Positions 53,131-56,941 of a DNA stretch of 64,000 bases are shown in pieces. This DNA comes from Escherichia coli (lineage in GTDB: Bacteria; Pseudomonadota; Gammaproteobacteria; Enterobacterales; Enterobacteriaceae), in the NCBI RefSeq assembly GCF_044324875.1, contig NZ_CP172185.1; one strand, 5' to 3'. Below the pieces are notes generated by a model that saw nothing but the letters and a program-made list of their open reading frames with translations, made no database searches and was not told where the DNA came from. The number at the start of each line of letters is the position of its first letter. Within the stretch, counting starts at the first letter, position 1. The position numbers were made by a program, and so were the translations under genes.

Positions 53131-54049
53131 ATTTAGCCATGTCAGCAAACTGTTCGGCGCACAAAAAGCCGTTAACGATCTCAATCTCAATTTTCAGGAA
53201 GGGAGTTTTTCGGTGCTGATTGGTACATCAGGCTCCGGCAAATCCACCACCCTGAAAATGATCAACCGCCTGGTGGAGCATGACAGCGGCGTGATCCGCT
53301 TTGCCGGAGAAGAAATTCGCTCGCTGCCAGTACTGGAGTTGCGCCGCCGGATGGGCTACGCCATTCAATCTATTGGCCTGTTCCCCCACTGGAGCGTGGC
53401 GCAAAACATCGCTACCGTGCCGCAATTACAAAAATGGTCGCGGGCGCGGATTGACGATCGTATCGACGAATTAATGGCGCTACTGGGGCTGGAGCCAAAT
53501 TTGCGTGAGCGTTATCCGCATCAGCTTTCTGGCGGTCAGCAGCAACGTGTGGGAGTGGCGCGCGCACTGGCTGCCGATCCGCAAGTCTTACTGATGGATG
53601 AACCTTTTGGCGCACTGGACCCGGTAACGCGCGGCGCGTTGCAACAAGAGATGACGCGCATTCACCGTTTGCTGGGGCGCACTATTGTGCTGGTCACTCA
53701 TGATATTGATGAGGCGCTACGGCTGGCAGAACATCTGGTATTGATGGATCACGGTGAAGTGGTGCAGCAGGGCAATCCGCTGACGATGCTGACTCGTCCG
53801 GCGAATGATTTTGTCCGCCAGTTTTTTGGGCATAGTGAACTGGGTGTCCGCCTGCTTTCGTTACGTAGCGTGGCGGATTACGTGCGTCGCGAAGAACGGG
53901 CAGAAGGTGAGGCGCTGGCAGAAGAGATGACGCTACGCGATGCGCTCTCCCTGTTTGTCGCGCGGAGATGTGAAGTGCTGCCGGTGGTGAACACGCAGGG
54001 CGAGCCTTGCGGCACGCTGCATTTTCAGGATCTGCTGGTGGAGGCGTAA
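53123..54049 (+). CDS. yehX: ABC transporter ATP-binding protein
   Basis: 308 aa, Walker [10 protein letters not shown], signature LSGGQQQR; overlaps yehY by 8 nt. Confidence 0.9.
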
Positions 54050-54053
54050 GCGT

Positions 54054-54785
54054 ATGAAGATGTTGCGCGATCCGCTGTTCTGGCTCATTGCTCTGTTTGT
54101 GGCGCTGATTTTCTGGCTGCCTTACAGCCAGCCGCTGTTTGCCGCCTTGTTCCCACAACTGCCACGACCCGTTTATCAGCAAGAAAGTTTTGCAGTTCTG
54201 GCACTGGCTCATTTCTGGCTGGTGGGAATTTCGAGTTTGTTTGCGGTGATCATTGGTACTGGTGCCGGAATTGCTGTCACTCGCCCTTGGGGCGCGGAAT
54301 TTCGCCCACTGGTGGAAACTATTGCCGCCGTTGGACAGACTTTTCCGCCCGTCGCGGTGCTGGCGATTGCCGTTCCGGTGATCGGCTTTGGTCTGCAACC
54401 CGCGATTATCGCCTTGATCCTTTACGGCGTGCTGCCCGTCCTGCAGGCAACACTTGCCGGGCTGGGAGCGATTGATGCCAGCGTGACAGAAGTTGCGAAA
54501 GGTATGGGAATGAGCCGTGGTCAGCGACTGCGTAAGGTCGAGCTACCGCTGGCGGCTCCGGTGATTCTGGCGGGCGTGCGAACTTCGGTGATTATCAACA
54601 TTGGTACGGCGACGATCGCCTCAACGGTAGGGGCCAGCACGCTGGGTACGCCGATCATCATCGGGCTTAGCGGATTTAATACCGCGTATGTGATCCAGGG
54701 GGCGTTACTGGTGGCACTGGCGGCGATCATTGCAGACCGCCTGTTTGAAAGGCTGGTGCAGGCGCTTAGCCAGCACGCAAAATAA
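54054..54785 (+). CDS. yehW: ABC transporter permease
   Basis: 243 aa multi-TM. Confidence 0.88.
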
Positions 54786-54873
54786 AGGTATAACCTGCGA
54801 GCATGACGCCACCAATTCCGCCTAACGCCATAAACAGGAACAGGGCGATGACCCCAATTTTAGCTATGCGCAT
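54766..54873 (-). CDS. yohO: Small membrane protein YohO (35 aa)
   Basis: Minus-strand [38 protein letters not shown]; 3' end overlaps yehW 3' end antisense; below ORF-track cutoff. Confidence 0.65.
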
Positions 54874-54932
54874 AATGCACTCCTTATGTTAACGAAAGGA
54901 TTGTACAGTAAAGCGCATTTGTTAACGAATCA

Positions 54933-55616
54933 TTAAATGCCGAGTGGGAAAATATCATGGCCTTGTTCCTGCCAACTGGTAAGTTGCTGCTGTTGGGCGG
55001 AGGTTCGATTTTCACCGCACCACACCAGCAATGTACGGCCTTCGAACAGTTCAGGGCGTAGTTGATTGAGCGAGTGGGCGAGGACATCAATGCGCCATCC
55101 TTGTTGACTGGCAATCCAGCCCTCCAGCCATAGACGGGTGGTATCGTGAATATTCCAGCCAACCACCAGCGCATCTTTACCCTGTTTTTTACGTGCCGAA
55201 GCCAGGCAAATGGCGATGTAGTTGATCAGTACGCCGTCAAGGATCGCCAGCAGCGCCTGGAGGGTCGGTTGTTGGCACTGAAGTCGTCGGCGCAGAGGAA
55301 TAAACAGATGCGTGGTGAGTGTCTGGGCAGGGTAATCCTGACCGCGCTCTTTGATCCACGTTCGCAGGCTATGCAGATTGCCGCTTTGCAGGTAAGTCAG
55401 TAATGTTTCTTGCTGATCGCGCCAGCCGTTCTGCACATCAACATTTTCATTACTGAGCAGCATTTTAACTTTGCTGACCTGCACGCCGTTGTCGATCCAG
55501 CGTTTGATCTCGCGGATCCGGTCAATATCGGCATCGTTGAACAGCCGATGGCCGCCGTCTGTCCGTTGCGGTTTCAGCAATCCGTAACGCCTCTGCCACG
55601 CGCGTAACGTGACAGG
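54933..55616 (-). pseudogene. mlrA: MerR-family regulator MlrA (YehV) lacking its 5' end, interrupted by prophage insertion
   Basis: Reading frame matches MlrA from ...PVTLRAWQRRYGLLKPQRTDGGHRLF to C-terminus FPLGI; upstream in frame the expected N-terminus (MALYTIGEVALLCDIN) is absent and a stop lies at 55650-55652; no ATG start. Confidence 0.8.
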
Positions 55617-55654
55617 GATTAAGGGTAAACTAACTGATTTTACAAGTTTTTATT

Positions 55655-56941
55655 TTACCCCACTTTCTTATGGGGCATACATGGGACACTTTCAGATAGT
55701 CTTTTGTTAAGGAGTTCTATCTGTTCGTGATTGTTGTCTTTCATCCATGCTCCGTAAACATTGAATACCATTTGTGCGTTTGTGTGGCCCATCTGGCTTG
55801 CGATAAAACTAGGATTAGCTCCAGCGGCAAGTGACCAGCATGCATAAGTATGCCTGGATTGGTACGATTTTCTGTGTCTCAGACCTGCGCGTTTTAAGAT
55901 ACTTGTCCATGACTCCCTGATGGAGTCAACCTTATAGTGCGGTCCGGAAAACTGCCGCTGTTTTATTACCTGAGGACTAAAAACAAAAGTGCATTTATGC
56001 ACAGTACTTCTCCCATATTCCCTCTGCTTTACCTCTACAGAATGTTGCTTTCCAAGCATGGTCATTTCCGCCTGACTTTTAAGAGCATCAATAGCTGGTT
56101 GAACCAGATGAATTGTCCTTCCGGTGCCAGCATCGGTTTTTGGTGGAGTGAATTCGCCAAGTTTTGTATAATTCCTACGGATGGTTATAGTCCTTGCTTT
56201 AAGGTCTATATCTTCCCATGCCAGCGATACCAACTCCCCGTGACGAATACCCGTGTATACAGCGAGAATCCACAGGTTTTTTGTTTGTTGATGACGGCAA
56301 GCCTCAATAAAACGAATAAATTCGTCACGGGTGAGAGGATCTGGTTTTACCTTGGACTTTTTTAAGGGAGCCAGACCGTTAAATGGGTTTCCTGAGGTAT
56401 AACCATTATCTGTTGCAAATTGAAACATTCCAGCTATGGTTGTCATATAGTAGTTTACCGTGACCACTGAGCGCCCTTTTATGGAAGAAGTCTTTCCATT
56501 AGAAAGCTTTTGGTAACCGGTCAACAAATCTCTCCTTACGAAAAGTAAATCCTCTTTTGTTATGGATGAAACCAGTTTTTTTTCACCTAACATTGGTAAC
56601 ATGTTTTTAATTACTGACTGGTAACGGTTAAGTGCATTCGCACAAATCTCAATTTTCTTAAGGTCCAACCATTTTTCCGAAAGTGCCTTAACGGTTATCT
56701 CTCTTTTTCCCAGACCAAAGTGTTTCAGGTTAGGGGAATTAGGGAACTGCGCGGCGTAGTCGAAACTCCCCATTCTGATTGCAAAACAAACGGAAGTGCG
56801 AAGTTCACCTGCGATCTTCCGGTTTTTGGCGGTGTCAGGAACACCGAGGTTTTCTCTGACACGTTTGCCATTATAGTGAAACCATATACGGAGTGATCCT
56901 CCATGGTTTTCAACGCCTGTCGGGTATGATACGTTACTCAT
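55655..56941 (-). CDS. int: Phage tyrosine integrase
   Basis: 428 aa; conserved boxes TGIRHGELVSL and HRKSYQSRHTYACW ... VYGAW; SD gggagg; 3' end faces the att junction. Confidence 0.88.
   Translation of the reverse strand: MSNVSYPTGVENHGGSLRIWFHYNGKRVRENLGVPDTAKNRKIAGELRTSVCFAIRMGSFDYAAQFPNSPNLKHFGLGKREITVKALSEKWLDLKKIEICANALNRYQSVIKNMLPMLGEKKLVSSITKEDLLFVRRDLLTGYQKLSNGKTSSIKGRSVVTVNYYMTTIAGMFQFATDNGYTSGNPFNGLAPLKKSKVKPDPLTRDEFIRFIEACRHQQTKNLWILAVYTGIRHGELVSLAWEDIDLKARTITIRRNYTKLGEFTPPKTDAGTGRTIHLVQPAIDALKSQAEMTMLGKQHSVEVKQREYGRSTVHKCTFVFSPQVIKQRQFSGPHYKVDSIRESWTSILKRAGLRHRKSYQSRHTYACWSLAAGANPSFIASQMGHTNAQMVFNVYGAWMKDNNHEQIELLNKRLSESVPCMPHKKVG

What the first reader, a model, noticed from the sequence alone, without database searches (positions are those of the whole stretch)
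54766..54873. Small membrane protein gene yohO overlapping the 3' end of yehW on the opposite strand
A 35-codon hydrophobic ORF on the minus strand overlaps the last 20 nt of yehW and lies directly beside the prophage-disrupted mlrA. It is missed by length-filtered ORF calling.
Basis: partly seen in the sequence, partly recalled or inferred. Interest (0 to 1): 0.3.

Follow-up and report, generated by a model that had tools for sequence, protein, structure and literature searches.

The report
Known small membrane protein gene yohO
This is the already catalogued E. coli gene yohO, a real and strongly conserved gene for a 35-residue single-helix membrane protein of unknown function whose end overlaps the end of the neighbouring transporter gene yehW; it is ordinary, not a discovery.

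Summary
Window 54766..54873 (-) is a 35-codon ATG ORF. Its product is 100% identical to E. coli K-12 YohO (WP_001216963.1, UniRef YOHO_ECOLI) and scores 80.1 bits against the NCBIfam equivalog NF010225 (cutoff 57). It overlaps yehW (54054..54785, +) by exactly 20 nt. It lies 59 nt downstream of an mlrA copy that has lost its promoter and first 16 codons to a prophage (integrase 55655..56941).

RefSeq annotates yohO under this stretch in every E. coli record listed; 5423 of 5426 complete genomes carry the stretch. In 80 species loci fetched through yehW alone, yohO is intact in 78. It always converges on yehW with a 17, 20 or 26 nt overlap and always has an AGGAG ribosome-binding site. dN/dS is 0.16 in its frame and 0.34-2.7 in the other five. 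It is the only frame open in all 79 sequences scored.

Published work reports Ribo-seq coverage, top-down mass spectrometry detection and membrane association. The yohO-yehW pair is already listed as a convergent "excludon".

What I add: yohO has its own conserved promoter, so the prophage should not silence it. Its linkage is to the yehZYXW operon, not to mlrA. Its core is an invariant glycine-rich segment. Its biochemical function is still unknown. Verdict: already known, low interest.

The parts
54766..54873 (-). yohO coding sequence (35 codons plus TAA stop)
   Evidence: ORF list. Identical to K-12 YohO. NF010225 at 80.1 bits against a cutoff of 57. dN/dS 0.16.
54766..54785 (.). 20-nt convergent overlap of the 3' ends of yohO and yehW, including both stop codons
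   Evidence: An overlap of 17, 20 or 26 nt is present in all 79 relatives that carry yohO and in the more distant loci L083-L090.
54880..54885 (-). Shine-Dalgarno sequence AAGGAG, 6 nt upstream of the ATG
   Evidence: Read. A GGAG core is kept at the same distance in nearly all relatives.
54900..54905 (-). Predicted -10 box of yohO's own promoter (TACAAT; TATAAT in most genera). The predicted transcription start is near 54893.
   Evidence: The T, A, A and T positions of the hexamer are invariant in a 40-species alignment (stacked sequences). Promoter activity and the start site are inferred, not measured.
54922..54936 (.). Conserved A/T-rich inverted repeat (TTAATG-N3-CATTAA; here TTAATG-ATT-CGTTAA) in the -35 region. 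It spans the mlrA stop codon (54933..54935).
   Evidence: It is kept in L087, L088 and L090, where the upstream gene is not mlrA. Its role is unknown.
54054..54785 (+). yehW, last gene of the yehZYXW (osmF) glycine betaine ABC transporter operon
   Evidence: RefSeq annotation. Its last 6 codons are relaxed (dN/dS 0.47, against 0.07 for the preceding 60 codons).
54933..55616 (-). mlrA remnant (K-12 codons 17-243), cut off from its promoter and first 16 codons
   Evidence: tblastn covers residues 17-243. The alignment with K-12 breaks at about 55616.
55655..56941 (-). Prophage tyrosine integrase next to the insertion junction in mlrA
   Evidence: annotation of the same junction in strain LH50-c. 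440 of 5426 complete genomes cover at least 80% of the 3-kb query across this junction.

Best explanation
The ORF is yohO, a genuine protein-coding gene restricted to Enterobacteriaceae and close relatives. It is transcribed from its own promoter in the 59-nt gap after mlrA and translated from a strong ribosome-binding site. The product is a 35-residue peptide that forms one, probably kinked, transmembrane helix in the inner membrane.

Topology is inferred from the positive-inside rule: R2 and K5 face the cytoplasm and the C-terminus faces the periplasm. Only a few residues protrude from the membrane, so the protein must act inside the bilayer. The likely mechanism is helix-helix contact through the invariant segment M15-A16-x-x-G19-I20-G21-G22-V23-M24-L25-x-G27-Y28. 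The partner is not known.

No terminator separates the convergent genes, so yehZYXW transcripts run antisense across all of yohO and yohO transcripts run into yehW. The two can therefore interfere with each other.

Shown here: identity, conservation, purifying selection, gene geometry, and conserved promoter and ribosome-binding-site sequence. Taken from the literature: translation, membrane association, overlapping transcripts. Inferred: topology, intramembrane partner binding, reciprocal regulation.
For: Identity:
- 100% identical to K-12 YohO and YOHO_ECOLI.
- NF010225 equivalog at 80.1 bits against a cutoff of 57.
- Precomputed Pfam hit PF27791 UPF0387_membrane for homologues.
- The locus is found in 5423 of 5426 complete E. 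coli genomes, with yohO annotated under the match in the 12 records listed.

Coding:
- Intact in 78 of 80 species loci that were fetched through yehW alone.
- dN/dS 0.16, against 0.34-2.7 in the other five frames.
- Column entropy by codon position is 0.53, 0.23 and 1.18.
- It is the only frame open in 79 of 79 sequences.
- The AGGAG ribosome-binding site is conserved.

Own promoter: the -10 box is invariant across 40 species, including loci without mlrA upstream.

Membrane helix:
- GRAVY 1.58 and a best hydropathy window of 2.41.
- AlphaFold2 pLDDT 90, with helices 3-18 and 20-33 broken at G19.
- Invariant G19, G22, V23, M24, L25, G27, Y28 and I31.

Overlapping transcription: yohO-yehW is in the MG1655 convergent excludome, meaning it was seen in at least 50% of 58 RNA-seq samples (PMC12288877). 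No terminator-like hairpin lies near either 3' end.
Against: - No function, partner or phenotype is known. Nothing here tests topology or binding.
- The conserved residues are contiguous rather than confined to one helix face. That fits a simple GxxxG packing model poorly.
- The promoter has only a weak -35 match, and the consensus scan did not call it.
- No transcription start data were available to me.
- Hemm et al. 2008 could not be read directly. Its result is cited second-hand.
Confidence: 0.9

Rival explanations
1. YohO is a dedicated accessory or regulatory subunit of the adjacent YehZYXW glycine betaine ABC transporter. It would bind the YehW or YehY permease inside the membrane, as KdpF, AcrZ or MgtS bind their transporters.
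For: yohO stays fused tail-to-tail with the yehW-type permease gene in every locus that has it. This holds even where the upstream neighbour changes from mlrA to an HTH_5 regulator, to metG, or to a TonB-dependent receptor. The invariant glycine-rich helix suits helix packing.
Against: It is on the opposite strand and has its own promoter, so it is not co-transcribed with the transporter. Antisense overlap predicts anti-correlated rather than joint expression (PMC12288877). No solved structure contains a YohO-like chain. The linkage could persist simply because a 3' overlap is hard to break without damaging both genes.
Confidence: 0.18
2. What matters is the RNA arrangement. The yohO transcription unit would exist mainly to act as an antisense brake on, or stand in for a terminator of, yehZYXW (an excludon), and the peptide would be secondary.
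For: The pair is listed as a convergent excludon. No terminator separates the genes. The one yehW locus without yohO (L081) has a canonical terminator in that position.
Against: Purifying selection acts on the amino-acid sequence: dN/dS is 0.16, with nine invariant residues including seven in the helix core. The ribosome-binding site is conserved and the protein is detected. An RNA-only role would not keep the frame open in 79 of 79 sequences.
Confidence: 0.06
3. YohO is a toxin-like or stress peptide that oligomerises and depolarises the membrane, comparable to YohP or to type I toxins, with the yehW mRNA acting as its antisense antidote.
For: It is a small hydrophobic single-helix peptide with a glycine-rich motif of the kind seen in pore-forming peptides, and it has an antisense transcript. 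YohP, another E. coli small membrane protein, depolarises the membrane (bioRxiv 10.1101/2025.05.06.652344, title and abstract).
Against: An IPTG-induced ASKA yohO clone grew and was picked in a positive growth selection (PMC10299036). YohO is detected in ordinary cultures. No dedicated antisense sRNA or Rfam family is present. There is a single conserved copy at a fixed chromosomal site, unlike typical multi-copy type I toxin loci.
Confidence: 0.06
4. The ORF is a chance open frame. Its apparent conservation would come from constraints on the yehW 3' end or the mlrA 3' region.
For: ORFs of this length are common by chance: 49 ORFs of at least 20 aa overlap 3 kb.
Against: Only 20 of its 108 nt overlap yehW. 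The non-overlapping codons 2-28 give dN/dS 0.157. Within the overlap it is the YehW tail that varies while the YohO tail holds. The family model, mass spectrometry and Ribo-seq all agree.
Confidence: 0.01

Closest known systems
YohO / UPF0387 family (NCBIfam NF010225; Pfam PF27791; UniProt YOHO_ECOLI)
   Same: Identical sequence, the same 35-aa length, the same position between yehW and mlrA, and the same 20-nt overlap as in K-12.
   Different: Nothing in the gene itself. Only the context differs: mlrA upstream is interrupted by a prophage in this strain.
YohP and other E. coli single-helix small membrane proteins (the Hemm/Storz set)
   Same: Under 50 aa, one transmembrane helix, overlooked by early annotation, and detected by tagging, Ribo-seq or mass spectrometry.
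   Different: No sequence relationship. YohP has described activities (membrane depolarisation, nucleoid condensation; titles and abstracts). YohO has none.
Small accessory subunits of transporters (KdpF, AcrZ, MgtS, CydX); their properties are stated from general knowledge
   Same: A single-helix peptide genetically linked to a transporter locus.
   Different: Those peptides are co-transcribed or co-regulated with their partner. yohO is convergent and antisense to its neighbour. No interaction has been shown.
Convergent excludons (ExcludonFinder, PMC12288877)
   Same: Convergent genes with overlapping transcripts; yohO-yehW is named in that paper's E. coli table.
   Different: Here the coding sequences themselves overlap, not just the untranslated regions. 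Reciprocal expression of this pair has not been demonstrated.

Membership tests
YohO (NCBIfam NF010225 equivalog / UPF0387) | Whole-protein HMM score above the curated cutoff, matching the full length of the model | tested here: met
   80.1 bits against a cutoff of 57, E = 8.8e-23, residues 1-35 on model positions 1-35 of 35.
YohO (NCBIfam NF010225 equivalog / UPF0387) | Sequence identity to the reference E. coli K-12 protein | tested here: met
   The K-12 locus and the window translate to the same 35 residues. An exact look-up returns 'UPF0387 membrane protein YohO, RepID=YOHO_ECOLI'.
YohO (NCBIfam NF010225 equivalog / UPF0387) | Conserved position: convergent with, and overlapping, the 3' end of yehW | tested here: met
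   20-nt overlap in the window and in K-12. Overlap of 17, 20 or 26 nt in 79 relatives. 20 nt in L083-L090.
YohO (NCBIfam NF010225 equivalog / UPF0387) | Single transmembrane helix | tested here: met
   Best Kyte-Doolittle 19-residue window 2.41. AlphaFold2 gives one helix with a break at G19 and pLDDT 90. Both are predictions.
YohO (NCBIfam NF010225 equivalog / UPF0387) | The protein is made and resides in the membrane | not testable with these tools
   Literature only: top-down mass spectrometry (PMC12529367); Ribo-seq coverage and a citation of Hemm 2008 for membrane association.
Pfam PF27791 UPF0387_membrane | Match to the Pfam model | tested here: inconclusive
   The local Pfam-A scan gave no such hit, only B12D at E = 0.36. 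Precomputed hits assign PF27791 to the homologues P0014 and P0015. The local copy probably predates this family.
Convergent excludon | Convergent neighbours whose transcripts overlap | tested here: met
   The coding sequences overlap by 20 nt and no terminator-like site separates them. RNA-level overlap is reported in at least 50% of 58 RNA-seq samples (PMC12288877).
Convergent excludon | Mutually exclusive expression of the two genes | not testable with these tools
   No expression data could be analysed here.
Type I toxin-antitoxin | Dedicated antisense sRNA and toxicity on overexpression | tested here: not met
   No Rfam family in 54000..56000. The antisense partner is an mRNA. An induced ASKA yohO clone grew in a selection (PMC10299036), which is indirect evidence.
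Transporter accessory small subunit (KdpF/AcrZ-like) | Co-transcription or co-regulation with the transporter genes | tested here: not met
   yohO is on the opposite strand with its own conserved promoter.
Transporter accessory small subunit (KdpF/AcrZ-like) | Physical association with the transporter | not testable with these tools
   No solved structure contains a YohO-like chain. No interaction data are available.

The most novel reading that the evidence does not exclude
yohO and yehZYXW form one conserved functional module. YohO would be an intramembrane modulator of the YehZYXW betaine transporter, and the tail-to-tail overlap without a terminator would act as a reciprocal switch. Sigma-S or osmotic induction of yehZYXW would then silence yohO by antisense transcription. 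This fits the unbroken yohO-yehW linkage across changing upstream neighbours and the terminator that replaces yohO in L081. Nothing tests it directly.
Probability: 0.15. Interest if true: 0.4.

Novelty: already known. Interest (0 to 1): 0.08.

Why it matters
As a finding it matters little. The gene has been in E. coli annotation since the mid-2000s, and current pipelines call it.

It remains a useful check case for small-ORF detection: a 35-codon ORF that only comparative evidence or ribosome-binding-site models can separate from dozens of chance ORFs nearby.

The open question is what YohO does. The comparative results narrow where to look. It has its own promoter, which should survive the prophage insertion in mlrA. 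Its linkage to yehW persists in the loci examined where mlrA is not the upstream gene. Its core is an invariant glycine-rich segment.

Tried and rejected
I used the exhaustive representative search instead. It found only 17 representatives, several of them frameshifted or fused read-throughs, so the family is narrow.
- Hemm et al. 2008 and 2010 are not held in the library.
- Searching for 'yohO' alone mostly returned papers about places and people named Yoho.
- The genomic SELEX entry near yohO is a weak peak inside yehW, about 0.5 kb from yohO by my recollection of MG1655 coordinates (not checked here). It says nothing about the yohO promoter.
- The consensus promoter scan did not call the yohO promoter because its -35 is weak. 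The terminator scans found only weak sites inside coding sequence.
- No Rfam family lies in the region, and no chain in the PDB resembles YohO.
- From memory, the E. coli -10 region TGTACAAT resembles a half-site of the MlrA box. The other half matches poorly, and most genera have CGTATAAT there, so I did not pursue MlrA control.
- I considered folding a YehW-linker-YohO fusion. I dropped it because the tool returns no inter-residue error or coordinates, so docking could not be judged.

Full report
**Observation.** The ORF list gives 54766..54873 on the minus strand: 35 codons, an ATG start, product [35 protein letters not shown]. yehW runs 54054..54785 on the plus strand. The two coding sequences therefore share 54766..54785, which is 20 nt and includes both stop codons. 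AAGGAG lies 6 nt upstream of the ATG, and an in-frame TAA lies 18 nt upstream, which fixes the start (read). The peptide is very hydrophobic: GRAVY is 1.58 and the best 19-residue window scores 2.41. ORF length alone means nothing, since 49 ORFs of at least 20 aa overlap this 3-kb stretch.

**Identity.**
- The product scores 80.1 bits (cutoff 57) over the full length of the NCBIfam equivalog NF010225, 'protein YohO'.
- The K-12 locus has the same layout: yehW, then yohO with a 20-nt overlap, then mlrA. It translates to the identical peptide.
- An exact look-up returns 'UPF0387 membrane protein YohO, YOHO_ECOLI'.
- The 501-bp stretch occurs in 5423 of 5426 complete E. coli genomes. yohO is annotated under the match in every record listed.
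- The local Pfam scan found no family. Precomputed hits assign homologues to PF27791 UPF0387_membrane, so the local copy probably predates that family.

**Is it a real gene?** I fetched 80 species loci using YehW alone as the query, so the sample is blind to yohO.
- A yohO homologue lies at the same place, convergent with yehW, in 79 of the 80, and it is intact in 78.
- It is 35 or 37 aa long (34 aa in two species). The overlap with yehW is 20, 26 or 17 nt. An AGGAG-type ribosome-binding site is always present.
- One exception, L008, carries a single extra T in a T5 run in an assembly consisting of one 4.9-Mb contig. That is probably a sequencing error.
- The other exception, L081, lacks yohO. 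It has a textbook hairpin terminator directly after yehW, followed by a convergent 714-aa gene that I take to be pta from its sequence, without a homology search.
- Pairwise Nei-Gojobori dN/dS over 78 distinct sequences is 0.17 for codons 2-34 and 0.16 for the non-overlapping codons 2-28. The other five frames give 0.34 to 2.7.
- Column entropy by codon position is 0.53, 0.23 and 1.18.
- The yohO frame is the only one open in all 79 sequences. The next best frame is open in 40.

**Published evidence.**
- Top-down proteomics detects it (PMC12529367).
- I could not read Hemm 2008 itself.

**Anatomy beyond the ORF.** Stacking and aligning the upstream regions shows a conserved promoter.
- The -10 box is TATAAT in most genera and TACAAT here (54905..54900). 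Its T, A, A and T positions are invariant across 40 species. It sits about 26 nt upstream of the ATG.
- A conserved GTTAACA lies at the predicted transcription start, near 54893.
- An A/T-rich inverted repeat, TTAATG-N3-CATTAA, lies in the -35 region (54936..54922). It spans the mlrA stop codon.
- This block persists in L087, L088 and L090, where the upstream gene is a TonB-dependent receptor rather than mlrA. It therefore belongs to yohO and not to mlrA.
- The promoter is a sequence inference. The consensus scanner did not call it because the -35 is weak, and I had no transcription start data.
- The practical consequence is that the prophage, which removes the mlrA promoter and codons 1-16, should not silence yohO.

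**The overlap.**
- In the shared 20 nt, the YehW tail varies (LSQHAK, LTRHVK, LSRHAE and others) while the YohO tail holds at FILRAG.
- The last six yehW codons have dN/dS 0.47, against 0.07 for the preceding sixty codons. The last six yohO codons give 0.27.
- No terminator-like hairpin lies near either 3' end. Each transcript should therefore run antisense into the other gene.
- This agrees with yohO-yehW being listed among 165 convergent excludons of MG1655, defined as overlap seen in at least 50% of 58 RNA-seq samples (PMC12288877).
- yehZYXW is described as sigma-S dependent (Checroun and Gutierrez 2004, cited in PMC2910731).
- Whether the pair is reciprocally expressed has not been tested.

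**The protein.**
- Thirty distinct homologues share invariant M1, G19, G22, V23, M24, L25, G27, Y28 and I31. K5, M15, A16, I20 and G21 are nearly invariant.
- AlphaFold2 predicts one helix with a break at G19 and pLDDT 90.
- The positive-inside rule (R2, K5) predicts the N-terminus in the cytoplasm.
- The family is narrow: 17 representatives at 50% identity among 1.84 billion proteins.
- No solved structure contains a similar chain.

**Mechanism.** My best-supported reading is a bilayer-embedded peptide that works by helix-helix contact through its glycine-rich core. The partner is unknown.
- The most attractive candidate partner is the YehW/YehY permease pair. yohO stays fused to yehW even where the upstream neighbour changes. 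However, it is on the opposite strand with its own promoter, and a 3' overlap is hard to undo once formed. I put this at about 0.15-0.2.
- A toxin-like role is unlikely. An induced ASKA clone grew in a selection (PMC10299036), and the protein is seen in ordinary cultures.
- An RNA-only role conflicts with the selection seen on the amino-acid sequence.

**Context.** The prophage junction in mlrA lies at about 55616, with the integrase gene at 55655..56941. In total, 440 of 5426 complete genomes cover at least 80% of the 3-kb query across this junction. Prophage insertion in mlrA is a known cause of reduced curli and biofilm formation in Shiga-toxin-producing strains (PMC3874044 and PMC5931665).

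**Verdict.** The gene is already known and routinely annotated, so interest is low. The comparative details on the promoter, the linkage and the invariant core are modest additions. They do not establish a function.

Noticed in passing
window 54922-54936 (and 54887-54893): A conserved A/T-rich inverted repeat, TTAATG-N3-CATTAA, spans the mlrA stop codon in the -35 region of yohO. It is retained in loci where mlrA is not the neighbour. In the Citrobacter freundii group it is shifted by an 8-nt deletion. A second GTTAACA sits at the predicted transcription start. It may be a regulator site; none was identified.
   Followed up: partly
window 54933-56941: mlrA has lost its promoter and first 16 codons to a lambdoid prophage (junction about 55616, integrase 55655..56941). 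In total, 440 of 5426 complete E. coli genomes cover at least 80% of the 3-kb query across this junction. The first 8.4 kb of the prophage is only about 84% identical, over 46% of its length, to the nearest deposited phages, which are Stx2a-converting phages.
   Followed up: partly
L081 3727-3790: The only yehW locus without yohO (Enterobacterales bacterium CwR94) has a canonical GC-rich hairpin terminator directly after yehW, followed by a convergent 714-aa gene (probably pta, judged by eye). A terminator thus occupies the place that yohO holds elsewhere.
   Followed up: partly
L008 3780-3800: In Citrobacter amalonaticus AUH_CA_2023_1, yohO is frameshifted by one extra T in a T5 run. Two other assemblies of the same species are intact, so this is probably a homopolymer sequencing error.
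   Followed up: yes
window 54768-54785 (last 6 yehW codons): The C-terminal tail of YehW evolves much faster (dN/dS 0.47) than the preceding 60 codons (0.07). The overlapping YohO tail is better conserved, so within the overlap the small gene appears to be the more constrained partner.
   Followed up: yes
proteins P0002, P0005, P0010, P0011, P0016, P0017: Several database 'relatives' of YohO are 46-84 aa products that match YohO only at the N-terminus and then diverge. They look like frameshifted or read-through gene calls rather than true longer family members.
   Followed up: no
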